From IMG/VR virus record IMGVR_UViG_2802429234_000007, positions 1-27,778 of that record: a DNA stretch of 27,778 bases, one strand, 5' to 3'. Shown here piece after piece: positions 1-11,768 of the stretch. The notes under the pieces were generated by a model. That model saw nothing but the letters and a program-made list of their open reading frames with translations, was not told where the DNA came from and did not search any database. The position numbers and the translations under genes were made by a program. Every line of letters begins with the position of its first letter. Position 1 is the stretch's first letter. This stretch comes from a virus. Taxonomy: Duplodnaviria; Heunggongvirae; Uroviricota; Caudoviricetes.

Positions 1-545
1 TTTTTTTTTCCCAACCGATAGATGTCTATATACCAAATTTGCCAAGATACAGAAATAAAGTCAACGTTCATGAAAGACTTTTCAATCGTAGCCATTCCAT
101 GAAAGGCTGCTAAACCACGTGGAGCTTAGGTGTCAGTCATCAGCGTTGTTGGTGGAGCCGATTTTCAAATATTATTTAATATGATAAAAATAAAATTTTT
201 GCTTTATAATCAAAATGATATAAAAAAACCTAATCATCTTACGGTTCTAAAAACTGTAATTACCTGAAATTCCTGTCAATCATTTCAGTTTCTGTTCTCC
301 GCAAAGCCGCCAGTAATGGCGCGGTCTGGCGCTCAGGTTTGTAGAAAAATAAAACTGAAAAAATTTCCAGATCCAGAAACCGCAGGCGGGTGCGGTGTAG
401 CGACGTTTTTGTCTGCGAAAGATTTATTTTGTCGGTGCATCGCTGCGCCAGCGCAGCGCCCGCACGATCTTTTATATGTGTTGCGTTGGGTTAATTTGTT
501 GTTTTAAGTGCTGAGAACGCGTTCTGCTGCGTCTGAGGATGGGTA

Positions 546-581: not shown

Positions 582-2285
582 TCAGGCAATTATATTCTGG
601 TACTTGCTCCGGGTCTGCCCGGCTTTCGTCGCCGTCTGGGTGAACGCGTCGGCATTAGTTGGCGTCCCAACGGTGGGGTGCGAATGGCTCGCGCATTGCT
701 GTGCCAGTTCTGCCAGTAAATCAATGGTATCCAACATCATGGTCAGGGCGTTGATACTCTCACTGCCAATATGGACAGTTGCCCCCATGACCTGCTGACC
801 GCCAGCGGCCACTGATTTACGCAGTGCGGCAATTTTCTCTGTCAGGCTTTCGCCAACCTCCACGGCTACAGCACCGCCCACTTTAGTGGACTGCTGTCCT
901 GCTATGTCCGTTTCTTCGTTTCCTTCAATACTGGCCAGCCTGTTACCTTTCACCGCCTGGCTATAATCACCGGCACTTACCTGCTGGATGGCTCCGGCCA
1001 GCAATGTGGTGGTTCCCAGTACCGTGGTTTTATCCGTGGCTTTCACCGTGGTTTCACGGCTGACCAGTTCGCGCTGTTCCGTATCGGCTTTTACGGTTCG
1101 CGCCATCGATGTTTCACTGATGGTCTGATCGGTCTGTCTTACCCAGTCTCCTGCCTGAGTCACCCGCTGGGAAACTTCTTCCCGCTGCTGCTGCAATTGC
1201 TCACCGGGTTTAACGTCCGGCAGGCTGGTACCATCCGGCAGCGTCTGCCTGATAAAGGGTTTATCCGGTCTGCCTCCCGTGAATGCAACCTCAACCAGCG
1301 TCCCTTCTGGCGGAAACTGAAACATACCTGAATCATTCCCGGCCATTGGCACCGGCAGCGGCACCGCTGAGTAAACAGGCGTCTGATTGTCCGGGTTTCC
1401 GTCTGCGTCAAGCAGCTGAACGTCCACGGCGTAACGTGGCCGGAAGGGATCGGCAAAATTACCGCTTTTTACCGGCTCTGAATGCGCCACGACTCTGGCC
1501 ATCTTTGGCAAATGAAGCCCGGATGCCAGTTCCGGGTAATGGCTTTCAATCTGCCGTTGTGCTGGTGTTTTCTGCAAAGGTTTACCCGTTGCGCGGTTTC
1601 TCGGCGTCCATGTGATCGCCATCGTGTCATTAGTCAGGTGAACTTTAGTCACGCGTTCACCGTTCATCTCCCCCCCTGGCCGCATAGTCTGGATCATTGG
1701 TAATGTCACAGAGTTACCACCAGCAGCCCCCTGGCTGAACTCTGAAGGGATTTCTACGGAACGACCGGCAAACAATGATTTTTCTGCGCCGCCGACGTAA
1801 AGCGAACCATCAGGCAACTGGTACCAGATGTAATCCTGGATACTGAACGCCCTGCCCAGATTGTTCAGCAACTGATAGCCGGTACCGTTATGGGTAAAAT
1901 GTGGGATAGGGGTATCGCTGTACTCTGCATCAGGCACACTGACCGTGATCCCGCTGTTTTCTTCCAGCCAGCTGGCAACCTCGCGTAAAGTTGGATGTTG
2001 AAACGAACATGGCCACATCCTTTCAAACACACCTACCAGTTCACGAATGAACAGACGCTGAAAACCGTTTTCAGCGGGCTGCGATCGCTCCACATACCCC
2101 GTAAACCAGCGCAAAAGCAGCTCGGTATACCCCACATCCAGCCGCACCAGTTTTCCGGTGTAATCGGTTGTTGTCTCTGCGGTGATGAAGCCCCGGCCGC
2201 AGCTGTTCAGCTCCAGTACCAGGCTGGCATCCACGAGGTGAACTTCATTCGTTGAAAGGTAAAGGCGTTTTACTGGTTTCATCAT
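582..2285 (-). CDS. Baseplate central spike protein (gpV/VgrG-like OB-fold) with ~270-aa N-terminal extension and C-terminal HSH apex
   Basis: Motif FPPEGTLVEVAFTGGRPDKPFIRQ matches the gpV/VgrG OB-fold signature (GxxVxVxFxxGDPDxPxI type); C-terminal ASHSHP resembles iron-binding spike apex; last gene of tail operon. Confidence 0.55.
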   Translation of the reverse strand: MMKPVKRLYLSTNEVHLVDASLVLELNSCGRGFITAETTTDYTGKLVRLDVGYTELLLRWFTGYVERSQPAENGFQRLFIRELVGVFERMWPCSFQHPTLREVASWLEENSGITVSVPDAEYSDTPIPHFTHNGTGYQLLNNLGRAFSIQDYIWYQLPDGSLYVGGAEKSLFAGRSVEIPSEFSQGAAGGNSVTLPMIQTMRPGGEMNGERVTKVHLTNDTMAITWTPRNRATGKPLQKTPAQRQIESHYPELASGLHLPKMARVVAHSEPVKSGNFADPFRPRYAVDVQLLDADGNPDNQTPVYSAVPLPVPMAGNDSGMFQFPPEGTLVEVAFTGGRPDKPFIRQTLPDGTSLPDVKPGEQLQQQREEVSQRVTQAGDWVRQTDQTISETSMARTVKADTEQRELVSRETTVKATDKTTVLGTTTLLAGAIQQVSAGDYSQAVKGNRLASIEGNEETDIAGQQSTKVGGAVAVEVGESLTEKIAALRKSVAAGGQQVMGATVHIGSESINALTMMLDTIDLLAELAQQCASHSHPTVGTPTNADAFTQTATKAGQTRSKYQNIIA

Positions 2286-2830
2286 TAACCCAAAGCATCA
2301 TTGACGGGCTTCAGCACCTTGCGTTCAAACCACGTCAGTTTTTCTTCATCCTCTCCGGCAGACTGGCCACCGGACTGTCCCGCACTACCGGCAGTCTGTT
2401 TTTTTGCGGTCGTCTTACCTGTTGCCCTGGCCTCTCGCTTTTCCTGCACGCTGATATGTTCCGCCAGTGTGAATGTCACCAGCCAGGACATTTTCCCGTC
2501 CTGCTGGGGCGCATCCAGCATTCCGCTGAACGTTGCTTCACGAAAATTAACTGCACGGGCAACTTCATGCGCCACGCGGTACTTCTGACGATTACCACTG
2601 GCATCGGTAGCACTGGCCAGCTCAAAAATACGCTTCAGTATTTCAGGCTGTTTAAAAGGTATTTCACCGCTAATCCGCAGTTCCTTTCCCTTTGCTCCCT
2701 GCTCTGATTTTGTTGTGGCGCTGGTCTGGCCGGACTGATCTTTATCCTGAAACTGCTGTGAAACGGTCACCCGCATGTTTTTCAGCTGGATGGCCTCGCC
2801 ATTAAGCGCCAGTGTCGGGATCGAAGTCAT
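2285..2830 (-). CDS. Hypothetical protein (181 aa), tail-module position, function unknown
   Basis: ORF with AAGGGA RBS 7 nt before ATG; stop overlaps spike start; no family recognised by eye. Confidence 0.4.
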   Translation of the reverse strand: MTSIPTLALNGEAIQLKNMRVTVSQQFQDKDQSGQTSATTKSEQGAKGKELRISGEIPFKQPEILKRIFELASATDASGNRQKYRVAHEVARAVNFREATFSGMLDAPQQDGKMSWLVTFTLAEHISVQEKREARATGKTTAKKQTAGSAGQSGGQSAGEDEEKLTWFERKVLKPVNDALG

Positions 2831-7453: not shown

Positions 7454-7779
7454 AAATCCACCTGCGCAGAGATCCCGCCAAAATCGTATGTACTCGCGGT
7501 TACCCACAGCCGCTTCTGACTTTCTTCACTGATTTCCACCGTACCCGGCACAATGCGTTCATCATCTTCAATCAGTAATTCCATGCGGGTAAAAATATCC
7601 GCTCTCATTGTCGGGCTACGTTCGGCGATTAATTCCGTCGCTAACCCGCTTTCAATAATGGAATGAATAATGTCCTGCCCGATACTTTTTCGGTTATTAC
7701 ATAATTCAGGTTCATTACCGGTATTCAGAACAAAGTCACCGCCCTGAATCAGTAAGTCGATATAGAGAACATTACTCAT
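7450..7779 (-). CDS. Small baseplate protein (gpW/gp25-like position), ~109 aa
   Basis: Start MSNVLYIDLL overlaps TMP stop (ATGA); size and position match P2 gpW / Mu gp46; sequence not confidently matched. Confidence 0.4.
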   Translation of the reverse strand: MSNVLYIDLLIQGGDFVLNTGNEPELCNNRKSIGQDIIHSIIESGLATELIAERSPTMRADIFTRMELLIEDDERIVPGTVEISEESQKRLWVTASTYDFGGISAQVDL

Positions 7780-9743
7780 GCGCCAAGCTCCTGCCATTCC
7801 ATAAGCTGGGATGGAGAAAGTGCTTCTTTGGTATGGAAATGCACTTCACCAATTTTCCGGCTGTTATCGGTTACAGATTTACTGTTGCTGCTGATTGTTT
7901 TGCTGATACCACCTTTATCCACACCTTTTAAATCACCACCCGTCGACAGTGTATTTCCGGTTAATGGCTGCGTGGTTTCACTGGCCAGTGAAATATCCAC
8001 GCCGGGAATTTTATTCAGTTTCTGAACAATCCAGTTCCACGATTTAAGAAATCCCCCTTTGATTGACTTCCAGACATTATCAAACAGCGACATAATGTCG
8101 GTGGCCATTCCCTTTAATGCCTCAGACGGTGAAAATCCTGTCAGCAAAGAAATAAAGCTGTTCCATCCTTCACTGATATATTGCCAGGCTGAAGCAAAGA
8201 TCCCCGCCAGCCATTTCACCACGGCGGCACATGTCTGGAAGGCTTCGGTATTCATCACCGCTGCTTTTATCGTGTCCCAGTGCTTAACCAGCAGATAACA
8301 ACCGACAACCAGCAGCGCAATGGCACCAATCACAAGCAGGATCGGCCAGCTCATCAGGTTGATACCAATTCCGGCCATTATTGCGGCCATGCGTACCGCC
8401 AGTAACGCACCGCGCAAAAACTTCAGCGTGGTATTCCAGGCGATTACCGCCATTTGCGACAGCCAGACAGTGGCCGTGTAGATTTTCGTAACCGCCGTTA
8501 ACGCCCCCCAGATCCCGCGCAGTCCCATCATGATGAATCTGGATACTCCCATCACGATATTGGCCACCGCACCCACGGCGGCAAAGCTCAGTAGTGCCAT
8601 CGACGCATAACCAATCACACGGGCAATGTTAGGAAATAACTGCATCCAGCGGGCAAAGGTCTGCCCCATATCAGCCAGGCGATTCAGAACCGGATACAGC
8701 ACCGGGATCAGCGTCAGCCCGATCACGGTCTGAATGGCTTTCAGGATTTGCACAAAGCGATCCCACGGCTTAACCATTTTTTGAGCCATTTCCTGGGTAC
8801 GCTTCAGACCGTCCGCGCCGCCCAGTTCGGTGATGTTCCGCTGAAGTAACGCGACATTGCCGTAAAGCTGTTTAACCACTGCAGAACTGTCACCAAAGGC
8901 TGCATCCAGTTCCGCCTGGGCTTTCAGGTTCCCTTCAAGGCTTTTGCCATATTTGCCCTGCAACTTGATCAGCATTTCAGGCATGGACAGCATTTTGCCG
9001 GTGGAGTCAGTAAAGGACAGCCCCAGCTTTTTAGCGCCATCAATCGCACCAGTCATAAATCCTTCATAGGCGCTGCTGGCTTCCGTTCCCAGTGTCCGCT
9101 GAAGTTGCCCCAGAACGGCCAGCTGTTCATCCAGTCCCACGCCGTAGTTAGTCCCTACGCCGCGCGCACCTTCCATCAAATCCTTGATAGTGGCCATTTC
9201 TGTGCCAAATGTTTTGCGCATATAAAGCATCTTGCCCGCCAGCTGTTCGGCAAATTCAACCTTGCCCAGTCTGGCGGCATCGGCGGAAAAGTTACCAAAC
9301 ATCTGCCCCATAAATTCCGCCGTGTCCGCCGCTGTGGACTTGAGCGCAAAAGCCAGGGTATTGGCGACTTTCGTCACCTTCGGCAGTTCATTACCCGTCA
9401 GTCCGGCAATGGAAGCGTTAATATTTTCCGTGGATTTAACGAACTCCACCGCGCTGGCACCGTAGGTTGTACTGAAGCGCAGGGCATCACGCTGAACGGT
9501 CTTAAGCGCGGAATCATCGATACCTTTTGCGGCGACATCATTCAGCGCGTCATACATTTCAATTGCCGGTGATAACGCGCCCCTGATCGCCATCCCGACA
9601 CCGGCCAGCGCCATCGCGCCGCCGCCAATCTGCATAAAGGCCGCTTTTGATTTTTCCGCAAAGCCGGTGACATTACCCTGCGCCTGTTTTAACGGGCGGG
9701 ATAATTTATCAATCAGGCTTAATGTAAAATCTAATTGTTTCAT
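7776..9743 (-). CDS. Tail tape measure protein
   Basis: 655 aa, Ala/Gly-rich with long hydrophobic central segment; directly after chaperone and frameshift region. Confidence 0.85.
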   Translation of the reverse strand: MKQLDFTLSLIDKLSRPLKQAQGNVTGFAEKSKAAFMQIGGGAMALAGVGMAIRGALSPAIEMYDALNDVAAKGIDDSALKTVQRDALRFSTTYGASAVEFVKSTENINASIAGLTGNELPKVTKVANTLAFALKSTAADTAEFMGQMFGNFSADAARLGKVEFAEQLAGKMLYMRKTFGTEMATIKDLMEGARGVGTNYGVGLDEQLAVLGQLQRTLGTEASSAYEGFMTGAIDGAKKLGLSFTDSTGKMLSMPEMLIKLQGKYGKSLEGNLKAQAELDAAFGDSSAVVKQLYGNVALLQRNITELGGADGLKRTQEMAQKMVKPWDRFVQILKAIQTVIGLTLIPVLYPVLNRLADMGQTFARWMQLFPNIARVIGYASMALLSFAAVGAVANIVMGVSRFIMMGLRGIWGALTAVTKIYTATVWLSQMAVIAWNTTLKFLRGALLAVRMAAIMAGIGINLMSWPILLVIGAIALLVVGCYLLVKHWDTIKAAVMNTEAFQTCAAVVKWLAGIFASAWQYISEGWNSFISLLTGFSPSEALKGMATDIMSLFDNVWKSIKGGFLKSWNWIVQKLNKIPGVDISLASETTQPLTGNTLSTGGDLKGVDKGGISKTISSNSKSVTDNSRKIGEVHFHTKEALSPSQLMEWQELGA

Positions 9744-10191
9744 TCAGTGCCTTTAAATGCTTTTGCCACACCATTGGCCACGGCGATCCCCGTATATTCC
9801 CAGTGCCGATTATCCAGCCATATAGCGGCGGCGATATCGTCAACAGAGTCCTGACCATGCGGTAAATAATGACGGCGTAGAATTAAATATTGTTCGAGTC
9901 CATTTCTTTCAATTTCATGGACTCGCTTTGTCAGTTTTTTACTTCAATTTCCAGTTCTGGCGCATAAATATCATTTACTTTGCCAACCAGTTGAAGTGCA
10001 GCACCCGGACGCTTTAATACTTCGGTCAGTGCTTCTTTACTTTCCGTTGCCACAATTCGCGTCAGATAGTTATGTGCCGGGGCAACTTTATTATCCATCG
10101 CCATTTCATTAATAAATTTGTTGTAGGCGGTCTGATTTGGTTCAAAAACAATATCAACACCACAAACACACAGTTTAATTTGTTCCATCAC
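9740..10191 (-). CDS. Tail assembly chaperone -1 frameshift fusion product (E+E' / GT analogue), ~150 aa
   Basis: Hand translation: -1 frame from A_AAA_AAC (9940..9934) stays open for 64 codons and stops at UGA 9742..9740, overlapping the TMP ATG at 9743..9741. Confidence 0.65.
9931..10191 (-). CDS. Tail assembly chaperone (P2 gpE / lambda G analogue), zero-frame product
   Basis: 86-aa ORF immediately upstream of tape measure; ends at slippery heptamer. Confidence 0.7.
   Translation of the reverse strand: MMEQIKLCVCGVDIVFEPNQTAYNKFINEMAMDNKVAPAHNYLTRIVATESKEALTEVLKRPGAALQLVGKVNDIYAPELEIEVKN
9934..9940 (-). other. Programmed -1 ribosomal frameshift slippery heptamer A_AAA_AAC
   Basis: mRNA reads GUA AAA AAC UGA at the chaperone ORF end; canonical X_XXY_YYZ heptamer. 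Confidence 0.65.
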
Positions 10192-10474
10192 TCATACTCT
10201 CTCTTAAATTAATTTCGTCCACTAACTGATTATGACGCGCAGCACACTGGCCATAAATTTCAGGATAAATTGTCAGTAATTCCGCTGCATCTTTTCCTGT
10301 CGTACCGTTCAGGCGCGGCAGCTGCGTGGTGCATTTAGTTTTCAGGTTTTCCTGATAACGCACGCTCGGTACCAGCTGCGGCGCTGTTGTACATGCTGAC
10401 AAACTCATCAGACAGACAATGATTGGTAAAAACGGGCTTAAGTATTTCCGTGCGTATCTCACGCGGTGCCACAT
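10175..10474 (-). CDS. o-spanin (Rz1-like outer-membrane lipoprotein), overlapped with Rz
   Basis: N-terminus MWHRVRYARKYLSPFLPIIVCLMSLSAC has basic n-region, hydrophobic core and lipobox LSAC; gene starts inside Rz in another frame and extends past its stop. Confidence 0.65.
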   Translation of the reverse strand: MWHRVRYARKYLSPFLPIIVCLMSLSACTTAPQLVPSVRYQENLKTKCTTQLPRLNGTTGKDAAELLTIYPEIYGQCAARHNQLVDEINLRESMSDGTN

Positions 10475-10673
10475 TTTTTAACGCCTCCAGTTTATCTTCC
10501 AGCGCTCTGGCTGAATCACTGGCAATGCCCTGCATTACTTTTCGCGATTCATTACCGGCCACCTGCGCCGCTGTATTGATCGCCAGCTCTAAGCTGTCAC
10601 GCCGCCAGTCAGCGGTCAGCCAGCCCCAGACAAACGCCAGCGCCACCACAACCAGCCACTGCCCGCTGCTCAT
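10335..10673 (-). CDS. i-spanin (Rz-like)
   Basis: 112 aa with N-terminal TM helix (WLVVVALAFVWGWL) and charged helical periplasmic domain; start overlaps endolysin stop. Confidence 0.65.
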   Translation of the reverse strand: MSSGQWLVVVALAFVWGWLTADWRRDSLELAINTAAQVAGNESRKVMQGIASDSARALEDKLEALKNVAPREIRTEILKPVFTNHCLSDEFVSMYNSAAAGTERALSGKPEN

Positions 10674-11014
10674 CAGCGCACCCCGTTATGTTCCAGGCTG
10701 AAATGATTACCATCAGGTCTGGATTTGAAGCGTCCGCCCCAGGAACCACCCAGTGATTCCCAGTATTCCCCCAGTGGCAGATAATCTTCTGTACGGGTTT
10801 TGTACTGACCGTTCACGAACAGATTGAAATCCACCGCCAGCCGCTGGGTGTGCAGGCTGTTAGAAATGCCGCTGCCTTTCTTCGCATTCAGCGCGGCCTG
10901 TTCTGGTGTACGGTAAGCCTCACCGAACGTCAGTCTGTAGCCATGTTCTTCTGCCCAGTGGATCAGACTGGCCACCATGACTGTGAATAATTGCTGTTTT
11001 TCACTCAGGGTCAT
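10673..11014 (-). CDS. Endolysin, peptidase M15-type (L-Ala-D-Glu peptidase-like)
   Basis: ~113 aa from MTLSEKQ; zinc-ligand-like pattern SLHTQRLAVDF ... DGNHFSLEH; sits between holin and spanins. Confidence 0.7.
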   Translation of the reverse strand: MTLSEKQQLFTVMVASLIHWAEEHGYRLTFGEAYRTPEQAALNAKKGSGISNSLHTQRLAVDFNLFVNGQYKTRTEDYLPLGEYWESLGGSWGGRFKSRPDGNHFSLEHNGVR

Positions 11015-11303
11015 TTGTCTTGCTCCCGTTCTGCTTTCCCGCTGCACGTCTGCGCAGCCACACTTCCACCGCCTGATAACCGGCAATCCCCAGCGCCGCC
11101 CCCAGCCCCTGAATGGCCAGCGGGCTGGCATCCGGGATCTGAATTAGTACCGCCCCGGCCACCACTGAAACCAGACTGCCCAGGATCACGCGACCGGCAA
11201 ACAGGCGCGGCGTGATTGGGTCATTACTGGTCAGCACATTGCCGATGGCAATCAGTGCGCCAATGATCAGCAGTGAATAAAGACTCTTTTCATGCTCCTG
11301 CAT
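11001..11303 (-). CDS. Holin (multi-TM small membrane protein with charged C-terminus)
   Basis: 100 aa, two to three hydrophobic segments, C-terminal RRRAAGKQNGSKTNDPE; immediately upstream of endolysin. Confidence 0.65.
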   Translation of the reverse strand: MQEHEKSLYSLLIIGALIAIGNVLTSNDPITPRLFAGRVILGSLVSVVAGAVLIQIPDASPLAIQGLGAALGIAGYQAVEVWLRRRAAGKQNGSKTNDPE

Positions 11304-11312
11304 CCCTGCCCC

Positions 11313-11768
11313 TTATCCGATCAGGTTTTCTGTGGCTTCCGCTTCCAGATACGGCACACCGTTGATGTTGACGAATTTCGGACTGGTCACGAAATATTTG
11401 ATTTTGTGCGTGGTCACGCCGCCCCCTTTCGGATCAATATCCAGCAGGTTGCTGACCTGCAATTTATTGCCGAACGTCTCCACCTTCATTTCTTCGCTAC
11501 TGGCTTTGGCATAGAAAAGAAAATCAAGTGGGGGAAGCCCACGCCATGAACCCGCTGCGCGGGCTTTGGCTGTCAGCACCTGAAGTGTTTTTGAACTGAC
11601 TTCAATTTCCCCTTCGGCGGCAACATCGCCGTCTACATACCCATCAGGGACGCCACGCGTCTGGGCGGCAGCGCTGTTATCCGTAATATCGAGCGTGATT
11701 TTCTCGATATGGATCAGATCGCCGTCCATATAGGTGTCAAACGACATACCCGAAATACGTTTGGTCAT
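11313..11768 (-). CDS. Putative tail tube protein
   Basis: 151 aa directly after putative sheath and before chaperone/TMP; assignment by position and size. Confidence 0.5.
   Translation of the reverse strand: MTKRISGMSFDTYMDGDLIHIEKITLDITDNSAAAQTRGVPDGYVDGDVAAEGEIEVSSKTLQVLTAKARAAGSWRGLPPLDFLFYAKASSEEMKVETFGNKLQVSNLLDIDPKGGGVTTHKIKYFVTSPKFVNINGVPYLEAEATENLIG

What the first reader, a model, noticed from the sequence alone, without database searches (positions are those of the whole stretch)
9740..10191. Programmed -1 frameshift in the tail chaperone gene
The 86-aa chaperone ORF ends ...GUA AAA AAC UGA, giving the canonical slippery heptamer A_AAA_AAC at 9940..9934. My hand translation of the -1 frame continues for 64 codons (LTKRVHEIERNGLEQYLILRR...AKAFKGTE) and terminates at a UGA that overlaps the tape-measure ATG, filling the otherwise unexplained 187-bp gap. 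This is the conserved G/GT (P2 E/E+E') mechanism, but the -1 extension is not in the ORF track.
Basis: seen in the sequence. Interest (0 to 1): 0.55.

Follow-up and report, generated by a model that had tools for sequence, protein, structure and literature searches.

The report
Tail chaperone programmed -1 frameshift
A temperate E. coli phage of the HP1/ESSI-2 type almost certainly makes a second, longer tail-assembly chaperone by letting a few ribosomes slip back one base at AAAAAAC; the trick is textbook, but no public record annotates it for this phage group, so its second half is filed as an unknown-function protein (DUF6890).

Summary
The chaperone ORF ends GTA AAA AAC TGA. The -1 frame then runs 64 codons and stops at a TGA that overlaps the tape-measure ATG, filling the 187-nt gap.

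- The upstream ORF is a full-length Pfam Phage_TAC_10 with a tail-chaperone fold.
- The -1 extension is a full-length Pfam DUF6890. It is under purifying selection only in that frame (dN/dS 0.22), including 18 codons that precede any usable start codon.
- The heptamer is fixed at wobble positions in 119 distinct relatives, from E. coli to Haemophilus HP1, Aeromonas and Vibrio. A few clades have A_AAA_AAA instead.
- A 9-bp hairpin lies 8 nt downstream. It is maintained by compensatory changes and by rare, pair-preserving synonymous codons.

The proteins are not sequence relatives of P2 E/E' (Phage_TAC_7 plus Phage_P2_GpE). This is the same mechanism in a different family.

None of the phage or RefSeq E. 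coli records I inspected joins the two ORFs. PGAP instead calls truncated standalone "DUF6890" genes.

Verdict: a real, ordinary tail-chaperone frameshift and a new member of a known kind. Its practical value is an annotation fix: DUF6890 is the T-like extension of Phage_TAC_10.

The parts
9931..10191 (-). Tail assembly chaperone gene, zero frame (G-like). 86 aa from GTG 10191, or more likely 85 aa from ATG 10188. Stop is TGA at 9933..9931.
9944..9946 (-). TGA stop in the -1 frame. It closes that frame upstream, so any shift must occur in the 10 nt between here and the zero-frame stop.
   Evidence: the -1 frame is open for only 3 codons upstream of CTG.
9934..9940 (-). Slippery heptamer A_AAA_AAC (zero-frame codons GTA AAA AAC), followed immediately by the zero-frame stop UGA.
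   Evidence: Present in all 85 close loci and 44 of 45 distant genomic loci. Among 119 distinct sequences the wobble base of codon 84 is A in 119 although the residue varies V/L/I, Lys85 is AAA in 119, and codon 86 is AAC in 115 and AAA in 4. Other invariant Lys and Asn codons use both synonymous codons. Columns T-AAAAAAC-T are the longest invariant run in alignment A2.
9926..9933 (-). 8-nt spacer (UGACAAAG) between the heptamer and the hairpin. It includes the zero-frame stop codon.
9895..9925 (-). Candidate stimulatory RNA hairpin: 9-bp stem CGAGUCCAU (9925..9917) / AUGGACUCG (9903..9895) with a 13-nt loop (9916..9904).
   Evidence: MFE -14 kcal/mol, z -2.62, 2 of 200 shuffles fold as well. 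76.5% of cells paired versus 15-40% for slid controls; covariation score 0.30 versus <=0.07; 0 of 500 shuffles reach it. Pair 8 switches A:U<->G:C at least 4 times on a tree, never A-C. Stem codons are pair-preserving rare codons: CGA/CGG 100% versus 6% background, CTC 92% versus 4%, GGA/GGG 97% versus 25%.
9740..9934 (-). -1 frame extension (T-like): 64 sense codons from CTG (9934..9932) to TGA (9742..9740). It can only be read after the frameshift. The predicted fusion is 150 aa counted from GTG 10191, or 149 from ATG 10188.
   Evidence: dN/dS 0.215 in this frame (0.293 for codons 1-18, 0.193 for codons 19-64). The other two frames give >1 and contain 2-11 stops. The length is 64 codons in all 85 close loci and 58-64 in the distant ones. 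AlphaFold2 model has three helices, pLDDT 85.9.
9749..9880 (-). DUF6890 domain (extension residues 19-62).
   Evidence: Pfam PF21830, E 3.2e-24, profile positions 1-44 of 44. PHROG 7050.
7776..9743 (-). Tape-measure protein gene. Its ATG (9743..9741) overlaps the stop of the -1 extension (ATGA).
   Evidence: Annotated 'tail tape measure protein' in the 97%-identical phage ESSI2_ev015. PF10145 PhageMin_Tail in relatives.

Best explanation

Most ribosomes translate the 85/86-aa chaperone (Phage_TAC_10) and terminate at UGA 9933..9931. A minority slip back one base on A_AAA_AAC (9940..9934), read CUG next, and continue for 64 codons. The result is a fusion of about 150 aa whose C-terminal part is the DUF6890 domain. 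That fusion ends at the UGA overlapping the tape-measure start codon.

Three features appear to promote the slip:
- the heptamer itself;
- the stop codon placed immediately after it, which is slow to decode;
- a 9-bp hairpin that starts 8 nt downstream.

By analogy with lambda gpG/gpGT (inference from the literature, PMC5009743), the shared N-terminal part would coat the tape-measure protein. The rarer -1-encoded part would recruit the tail tube protein. Neither product would end up in the virion.

Shown here by computation: the sequence layout, the coding status and family of both parts, selection on the heptamer, and selection on the hairpin.

Inferred, not shown: that slippage occurs, how efficient it is, whether the hairpin and stop stimulate it, and what the two domains bind.
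For: Layout.

The -1 ORF is coding and depends on upstream translation:
- It is a full-length DUF6890.
- dN/dS is 0.22 in that frame only, and 0.29 for the first 18 codons.
- The first canonical start is codon 52 in 37 of 75 unique sequences and codon 48 in most of the rest.
- The codon after the heptamer is CTA, not CTG, wherever the stop is TAA or TAG.
- Database 'DUF6890' proteins begin at nine or more different positions.
- No fused protein exists in 5.8 billion clusters, so the split is not a sequencing error in this window.

Heptamer under nucleotide-level selection.

Conservation of the two-frame arrangement across 76 phage records, including HP1, HP2, F108, phiO18P and Vibrio and Pseudoalteromonas phages. 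Variant shift site A_AAA_AAA in some clades.

Hairpin.

Literature: the G/GT mechanism, and A_AAA_AAC as a known -1 site that is only weakly shifty in E. coli, which suits a low fusion-to-chaperone ratio (PMC5009743).
Against: There is no direct evidence that the fusion protein exists; everything is comparative.

A_AAA_AAC is reported to be much less shift-prone in E. coli than A_AAA_AAG, so the efficiency could be very low.

The hairpin is not universal. RNAalifold finds no consensus structure over all clades. Aeromonas, Ewingella/Rahnella and the 'VKK' subgroup have different structures at 3-5 nt spacing. One locus, L128, has no obvious nearby structure.

One relative, L097 (Citrobacter sp. 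FP75), lacks a heptamer and has only an A_AAG site.

No conserved upstream Shine-Dalgarno-like stimulator was seen.

The extension's model has no informative structural neighbour, so its tube-binding role rests on analogy only.
Confidence: 0.9

Rival explanations
1. Transcriptional slippage rather than ribosomal slippage. RNA polymerase adds one A in the A6 run, and the edited mRNA encodes the same fusion.
For: The site is a homopolymeric A run, A6 here and A7 in the A_AAA_AAA clades. Sequence alone cannot separate the two routes, and both give nearly the same protein.
Against: From established knowledge (PMC5009743 covers this class), efficient slippage by bacterial RNA polymerase needs runs of about 8-9 or more; A6 is short. 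The base after the run is constrained to C, or to A followed by a stop. The frame register X_XXY_YYZ is kept. A structure with covariation sits at the 5-9 nt spacing typical of ribosomal frameshift stimulators. None of these is required for polymerase slippage.
Confidence: 0.05
2. DUF6890 is an independent small gene, translated from its own (possibly non-canonical or reinitiation) start, as PGAP and some phage records annotate it.
For: RefSeq annotates standalone 'DUF6890 family protein' CDSs of 27-64 aa. ev239 has a 46-aa 'hypothetical protein' here. In this window the codon after the heptamer is CTG, overlapping the stop as CTGA, which could in principle allow termination-reinitiation.
Against: No start codon is conserved. 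The first ATG/GTG/TTG is codon 48-52 of 64 in most sequences, beyond most of the 44-residue domain. The CTG is CTA in every relative whose stop is TAA or TAG. Codons 1-18, upstream of every annotated start, are still under purifying selection (dN/dS 0.29). Annotated N-termini are scattered over nine or more positions. This model also does not explain the frozen heptamer.
Confidence: 0.03
3. The 187-nt stretch is a non-coding spacer, and the open -1 frame and the heptamer are coincidences.
For: Short open frames and A-runs do occur by chance. In-frame X_XXY_YYZ heptamers are found 36 times in this window's genes.
Against: The extension is a curated Pfam domain at E 3e-24. Purifying selection is frame-specific, and the other frames carry stops. 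The open frame is 58-64 codons in more than 130 loci down to about 35% identity. The heptamer is invariant at synonymous sites.
Confidence: 0.01

Closest known systems
Phage lambda gpG / gpGT tail assembly chaperones (-1 frameshift at G_GGA_AAG; Levin, Hendrix & Casjens 1993; Xu, Hendrix & Duda 2004, 2013, 2014, as summarised in PMC5009743)
   Different: No detectable sequence similarity; the Pfam families differ. The heptamer here is A_AAA_AAC and abuts the stop codon. A conserved 3' hairpin is present, whereas lambda is generally described as needing no strong 3' structure (my recollection, not checked here). Four lysis genes separate the tube gene from the chaperone.
Phage P2 E / E+E' (Phage_TAC_7 PF10109 plus Phage_P2_GpE PF06528)
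   Same: Same virus family (Peduoviridae). Same layout: chaperone, -1 extension of about 56-64 residues, and an extension stop that overlaps the tape-measure start. The joined CDS and frameshift site are annotated in NC_001895.
   Different: Not homologous at sequence or profile level: hhalign probability 0.07% for the chaperone part and 0.4% for the extension, and the Pfam families differ. The P2 site is T_TTT_TTG, six codons before the E stop, not A_AAA_AAC next to the stop.
Haemophilus phage HP1 orf26 / orf27 region and its relatives (HP2, Pasteurella F108, Aeromonas phiO18P, Cronobacter ESSI-2, Escherichia ESSI2_ev phages)
   Same: True homologues. The 150-aa fusion aligns in two frames over 95% or more of its length. 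HP1 has the identical GTA AAA AAC TAA and a 64-codon -1 extension counted from the shift site. The gene order is the same, with lysis genes between tube and chaperone.
   Different: Only 47% identity to HP1. The downstream RNA structures are not homologous between clades. None of the records I inspected annotates the joined product. I could not check whether HP1 is in the 2004 survey table.
E. coli dnaX -1 frameshift signal (A_AAA_AAG with upstream Shine-Dalgarno-like element and 3' hairpin)
   Same: An A-rich heptamer decoded by tRNA-Lys in the P site, with a stem-loop a few nucleotides downstream.
   Different: The A-site codon here is AAC (Asn), reported as far less shifty in E. coli. No conserved upstream SD-like element was seen. 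The biological purpose is different.

Membership tests
Tail-assembly-chaperone -1 frameshift (lambda G/GT type) | Two overlapping ORFs immediately upstream of the tape-measure gene, downstream of the major tail/tube gene | tested here: met
   Chaperone 10191..9931; -1 ORF 9934..9740; tape measure 9743..7776. The tube gene 11768..11313 is upstream, but four lysis genes intervene.
Tail-assembly-chaperone -1 frameshift (lambda G/GT type) | Slippery X_XXY_YYZ heptamer, in register, inside the overlap of the two frames | tested here: met
   A_AAA_AAC at 9940..9934 lies within a 10-nt overlap. Background rate of such heptamers is 0.45%. The heptamer is invariant at wobble sites in 119 sequences.
Tail-assembly-chaperone -1 frameshift (lambda G/GT type) | The second ORF is a conserved protein with no start codon of its own | tested here: met
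   DUF6890, E 3e-24. dN/dS 0.22, including the start-less first 18 codons. Annotated N-termini are scattered.
Tail-assembly-chaperone -1 frameshift (lambda G/GT type) | The arrangement is conserved among relatives although the sequence diverges | tested here: met
   85 of 85 close loci, 44 of 45 genomic loci, and 76 phage records down to about 35% identity.
Tail-assembly-chaperone -1 frameshift (lambda G/GT type) | The first ORF has the tail assembly chaperone fold | tested here: met
Tail-assembly-chaperone -1 frameshift (lambda G/GT type) | Both the short and the fused protein are made, at a low fused-to-short ratio, and both are needed for tail assembly | not testable with these tools
   Needs proteomics, reporter assays and phage genetics.
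Pfam Phage_TAC_10 (PF10963) | Match to the family model above its gathering score | tested here: met
   125.7 bits against a cut-off of 25.7; profile positions 1-82 of 82.
Pfam DUF6890 (PF21830) | Match to the family model above its gathering score | tested here: met
   84.8 bits against a cut-off of 23.6; profile positions 1-44 of 44, on the -1 translation.
P2 E / E+E' (Phage_TAC_7 plus Phage_P2_GpE) | Sequence or profile homology to P2 gpE and to the E' extension | tested here: not met
   No PF10109 or PF06528 hit at E<=1. hhalign probability 0.07% and 0.4%. P2's own parts hit those families.
P2 E / E+E' (Phage_TAC_7 plus Phage_P2_GpE) | Shift site T_TTT_TTG a few codons before the E stop | tested here: not met
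   Here the site is A_AAA_AAC directly before the stop. P2 has GGT TTT TTG, six codons before its stop.
dnaX-type tripartite signal | 3' stem-loop at 5-9 nt from the heptamer | tested here: met
   9-bp stem, 8-nt spacer, with covariation. Its stimulatory activity was not tested.
dnaX-type tripartite signal | Upstream Shine-Dalgarno-like stimulator about 10 nt 5' of the heptamer | tested here: inconclusive
   Only a weak GGA within CTGGA, 9 nt upstream. It is confounded with conserved Leu-Glu/Asp codons and is absent in the Oceanimonas and Zobellella loci.

The most novel reading that the evidence does not exclude
The whole HP1-like lineage (Phage_TAC_10) may use a distinct, three-part recoding cassette:
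- an A_AAA_AAM heptamer whose A-site codon is a poor shifter in enterobacteria;
- a zero-frame stop codon placed immediately after it in nearly all of about 135 loci, a natural 'shifty stop';
- a clade-specific 3' structure.

In this reading DUF6890 is a previously unrecognised T-domain family. If the adjacent stop and the hairpin are both required, the shift may be a P-site slip coupled to slow termination rather than classical tandem slippage. That would make this a clean bacterial model for stop-adjacent -1 frameshifting.
Probability: 0.3. Interest if true: 0.45.

Novelty: new member of a known kind. Interest (0 to 1): 0.3.

Why it matters
The mechanism has been textbook since 1993 and 2004, so a specialist would not be surprised.

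The practical value is annotation. A curated Pfam 'domain of unknown function' (DUF6890, PF21830, with PHROG 7050) can be reassigned as the frameshift-encoded C-terminal extension of Phage_TAC_10 chaperones. It is the counterpart of Phage_P2_GpE for P2.

The phage records I inspected (HP1, ESSI-2, ESSI2_ev015, ESSI2_ev239, Yersinia vB_YenM_324, Vibrio 1.202.O, Pseudoalteromonas vB_Psp_PY3) lack the joined CDS. The RefSeq prophage record I opened carries a truncated standalone gene instead, and other E. coli prophage records list a separate DUF6890 CDS.

The site also offers a compact natural example of an A_AAA_AAC heptamer, an adjacent stop and a covarying hairpin in an E. coli phage. It could be used to study how weak shift sites are tuned.

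Tried and rejected
1. Fused protein in databases. A search with the 150-aa fusion returned only chaperone-length hits. No annotated fusion exists, and there is no sign that the split is a sequencing error.
2. Structure of the whole fusion. MAFFT mis-placed the short DUF6890 proteins on the chaperone half (alignment A4), so I modelled the two halves separately.
3. Fold search for the extension against viral predicted structures. The best E was 0.86, which is uninformative. Profile searches against PDB sequences gave nothing for either half.
4. One consensus RNA structure over all clades. RNAalifold returned none. The hairpin is specific to one clade and other clades have different structures.
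5. Rfam found no known RNA family in 9700..10250.
6. NCBIfam gave no hits for either half.
7. Literature. No paper mentions DUF6890, PF21830, PF10963 or DUF2765. Xu et al. 2004 is not held, and the one PRFect supplementary file that is held contains none of the HP1/HP2 names or accessions I searched for. I therefore could not verify whether HP1 was already listed as a frameshift candidate.
8. Termination-reinitiation at the CTG overlapping the stop. Rejected, because that codon is CTA in about half the relatives.
9. A +1 shift. Rejected, because that frame closes after 5 codons.
10. A pseudoknot involving the 13-nt loop. I checked by eye only and saw no complement of 5 nt or more downstream. 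This was not tested formally.
Full report
**1.

All coordinates are on the minus strand.
- The short ORF 10191..9931 ends GAA GTA AAA AAC TGA.
- AAAAAAC occupies exactly 9940..9934, in the register A_AAA_AAC.
- Reading from C9934 in the -1 frame gives 64 sense codons (LTKRVHEIERNGLEQYLILRRHYLPHGQDSVDDIAAAIWLDNRHWEYTGIAVANGVAKAFKGTE).
- That frame ends at TGA 9742..9740, which overlaps the ATG (9743..9741) of the 655-aa tape-measure ORF.
- The gap between the two conventional genes is 187 nt.

The -1 frame is closed just upstream by a TGA at 9946..9944. The two frames are therefore both open over only 10 nt, and the heptamer lies in that stretch. The other alternative frame closes after 5 codons. 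In-frame X_XXY_YYZ heptamers are rare in this window's genes: 36 of 8064 in-frame positions, or 0.45%.

**2. What the element is**

The window is 97% identical over this stretch to Escherichia phage ESSI2_ev015 (Peduoviridae, Quadragintavirus). It is related to Cronobacter phage ESSI-2.

The gene order is sheath, tube, holin, endolysin, Rz/Rz1 spanins, chaperone, tape measure, DUF2590, baseplate J.

**3. The -1 frame is a real coding region that cannot be translated on its own**

Its translation is a full-length match to Pfam PF21830, DUF6890 (E 3e-24, profile positions 1-44 of 44), and to PHROG 7050.

Across 75 distinct chaperone-plus-extension sequences from IMG/VR and phage records:
- dN/dS in the -1 frame is 0.215, against 0.151 for the chaperone;
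- the other two frames give values above 1 and carry 2-11 stops;
- the first 18 codons taken alone give 0.293.

Those 18 codons precede any usable start. The first ATG/GTG/TTG in the frame is codon 52 in 37 of the 75 sequences and codon 48 in most of the rest.

The codon after the heptamer is CTG here. It is CTA wherever the chaperone stop is TAA or TAG, which rules out reinitiation at CTG.

Public 'DUF6890 family proteins' are 45-71 aa long and start at nine or more different alignment positions. One RefSeq example is only 27 aa. This scatter is what gene callers produce on a frame with no native start.

No fused protein is present in the 5.8-billion-cluster protein database. The two-frame arrangement is therefore the normal state of the family, not an error in this window.

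**4. The slippery site is under selection as nucleotides, not just as amino acids**

All 85 close loci keep GTAAAAAAC followed by a stop, and a -1 ORF of exactly 64 codons.

Of 45 loci from species-representative genomes, 44 keep the heptamer and a homologous -1 extension of 58-64 codons. These include Kluyvera, Enterobacter, Brenneria, Ewingella, Morganella, Aeromonas, Oceanimonas, Zobellella, Aliivibrio and Vibrio.

Among 119 distinct sequences:
- the third base of codon 84 is A in all 119, although the residue varies (Val, Leu or Ile);
- Lys85 is AAA in all 119;
- codon 86 is AAC in 115 and AAA in 4, never AAT or AAG.

In the same genes, other invariant Lys codons are 79-88% AAA, and invariant Asn codons mix AAC and AAT freely. 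In the 27 preceding codons, the commonest third-position base has a frequency of 0.33-0.82 at all but one codon.

The arrangement reaches the classical phage HP1, which has GTA AAA AAC TAA. It also reaches Vibrio and Pseudoalteromonas phages, which have GTA AAA AAA TAG, at 35-47% protein identity. A Salmonella subgroup likewise has A_AAA_AAA.

One Citrobacter prophage, L097, has only GTA AAG AAA TAA. There an A_AAG single-tRNA slip is the only evident site.

**5. A downstream hairpin exists and is selected in the enterobacterial clade**

Eight nucleotides after the heptamer lies a perfect 9-bp stem, CGAGUCCAU / AUGGACUCG (9925..9917 and 9903..9895), with a 13-nt loop. Its MFE is -14 kcal/mol and its z-score -2.62.

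On 61 distinct sequences from all clades:
- the stem pairs in 76.5% of cells, against 15-40% when the partner is slid by 1-3 columns;
- the covariation score is 0.30, against 0.07 or less for the slid versions;
- 0 of 500 shuffles reach the observed value.

The structure was read off one of these sequences and the sequences are related, so I added two further tests.

- Tree-based count. On a neighbour-joining tree built from flanking sequence, stem pair 8 changes between A:U and G:C at least four times. G:U is the only intermediate, and A-C never occurs.
- Codon usage with sequences chosen by amino acid only. In the 92 sequences that share Arg4, Val5, Asn11, Gly12 and Leu13, the stem uses pair-preserving codons that are rare elsewhere in the same genes.

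| Residue | Codons in stem | Share in stem | Share elsewhere in same genes |
|---|---|---|---|
| Arg | CGA/CGG | 100% | 6% |
| Leu | CTC | 92% | 4% |
| Gly | GGA/GGG | 97% | 25% |
| Val | GTC | 87% | 12% |

The Asn wobble base also tracks the second base of codon 6: A-T 56, G-C 32, G-T 4, A-C 0.

The hairpin is not universal.
- RNAalifold finds no consensus over all clades.
- Aeromonas has a long GC-rich stem that starts 3-4 nt after the heptamer, mostly -21 to -27 kcal/mol.
- Ewingella and Rahnella have GGCGCG-N4-CGCGCC at a 4-nt spacing.
- The A_AAA_AAA Salmonella subgroup has GCCCG-CGUG-CGGGC at a 5-nt spacing.

Most clades thus have some structure close behind the site, though one locus (L128) has no obvious one. 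The structures are not homologous to each other.

**6. Most likely mechanism**

Shown by computation: layout, coding status, and selection on the heptamer and the stem.

Inferred: a minority of ribosomes shift -1 on A_AAA_AAC, helped by the adjacent stop codon and the hairpin. They then produce a chaperone-DUF6890 fusion of about 150 aa.

Tandem slippage and a P-site slip with the stop codon in the A site would give the same protein (...EIEVKN-LTKRV...). Sequence analysis cannot tell them apart.

The review PMC5009743 makes three relevant points:
- A_AAA_AAC is much less shifty in E. coli than A_AAA_AAG. That would suit the low fusion-to-chaperone ratio known for lambda, about 1:30.
- An archaeal virus uses the same heptamer for g-t expression.
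- In lambda, the shared G part binds the tape-measure protein and the T part binds the tube protein.

I transfer those roles by analogy only. The three-helix model of the extension (pLDDT 85.9) has no informative structural neighbour.

**7. Rivals**

- Transcriptional slippage at the A6 run would give the same product. The run is short, and this model does not explain the conserved base after it, the codon register or the well-spaced structure. I give it about 5%.
- Independent translation of DUF6890 is contradicted by the lack of a start codon, by selection on the start-less codons and by the frozen heptamer. About 3%.
- A non-coding spacer is excluded.

**8. Comparison with what is known**

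As a mechanism, this is the conserved tail-chaperone frameshift of lambda G/GT and P2 E/E+E'.

As a family, it is not P2's.
- P2 E is Phage_TAC_7, and its extension is Phage_P2_GpE.
- P2 slips at T_TTT_TTG, six codons before the stop.
- Profile comparison with our two parts gives probabilities of 0.07% and 0.4%.

The correct statement is that Phage_TAC_10 plus DUF6890 is to the HP1-like phages what Phage_TAC_7 plus Phage_P2_GpE is to P2.

None of the records I inspected annotates a joined CDS. These are HP1, ESSI-2, ESSI2_ev015, ESSI2_ev239, Yersinia vB_YenM_324, Vibrio 1.202.O, Pseudoalteromonas PY3 and a RefSeq E. coli prophage.

No paper in the searchable library mentions the two Pfam families. 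I could not read Xu et al. 2004, so I cannot exclude that HP1 was already listed there as a candidate.

**9. Verdict**

It is a new, unannotated member of a very well-known kind.

- Confidence that a ribosomal -1 frameshift produces the fusion: about 0.9.
- Confidence that the hairpin stimulates it: about 0.7.
- Interest: modest, 0.3.

The main yield is an annotation fix for DUF6890 and a well-supported natural example of a heptamer, an adjacent stop and a covarying hairpin working together.

Noticed in passing
window 10175..11303 (- strand): A complete lysis cassette sits between the tail tube gene and the chaperone gene, as in phage HP1. It comprises holin 11303..11001, M15 endolysin from about 11014 to 10673, Rz 10673..10335, and an Rz1-like ORF that straddles the 3' end of Rz. 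The Rz1-like ORF ends at 10175, so it overlaps the first codons of the chaperone gene.
   Followed up: partly
L084 (NZ_CP063503.1) 878..961; also proteins P0121-P0157: PGAP annotates standalone 'DUF6890 family protein' CDSs with inconsistent N-termini (45-71 aa; 27 aa in L084). Their starts include non-ATG codons inside or at the beginning of the -1 frame. These look like systematic annotation artefacts of an unrecognised frameshift.
   Followed up: yes
L085 (JAEWTL010000126.1, 'MAG: Bacillota bacterium'): A contig binned as Bacillota carries a chaperone tail, heptamer and -1 extension identical to this enterobacterial phage window. This is probably a mis-binned contig or contamination.
   Followed up: no
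window 2294..2288 and 11040..11034 (- strand): Two other in-frame slippery heptamers lie near gene ends. T_TTG_GGT is one codon before the stop of ORF 2830..2285. G_GGA_AAG (the lambda G/GT sequence) is 11 codons before the holin stop. The overlapping endolysin frame is +1 relative to the holin, not -1, so the second one is probably chance.
   Followed up: partly
L089, L101, L109, L114, L116, L122-L127 (Aeromonas loci), about 3-60 nt after the heptamer: The Aeromonas clade replaces the enterobacterial 9-bp hairpin with a much stronger, extended GC-rich stem, mostly -21 to -27 kcal/mol, that starts 3-4 nt after the heptamer. Ewingella and Rahnella have a GGCGCG-N4-CGCGCC hairpin. The downstream structures are clade-specific and not homologous.
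   Followed up: partly
L097 (Citrobacter sp. FP75) 1720..1750: This is the only relative without the heptamer: GTA AAG AAA TAA. The homologous -1 extension is still open, so either an A_AAG single-tRNA slip is used or this prophage copy is defective.
   Followed up: partly
window 1..9: The window begins with a run of nine T.
   Followed up: no
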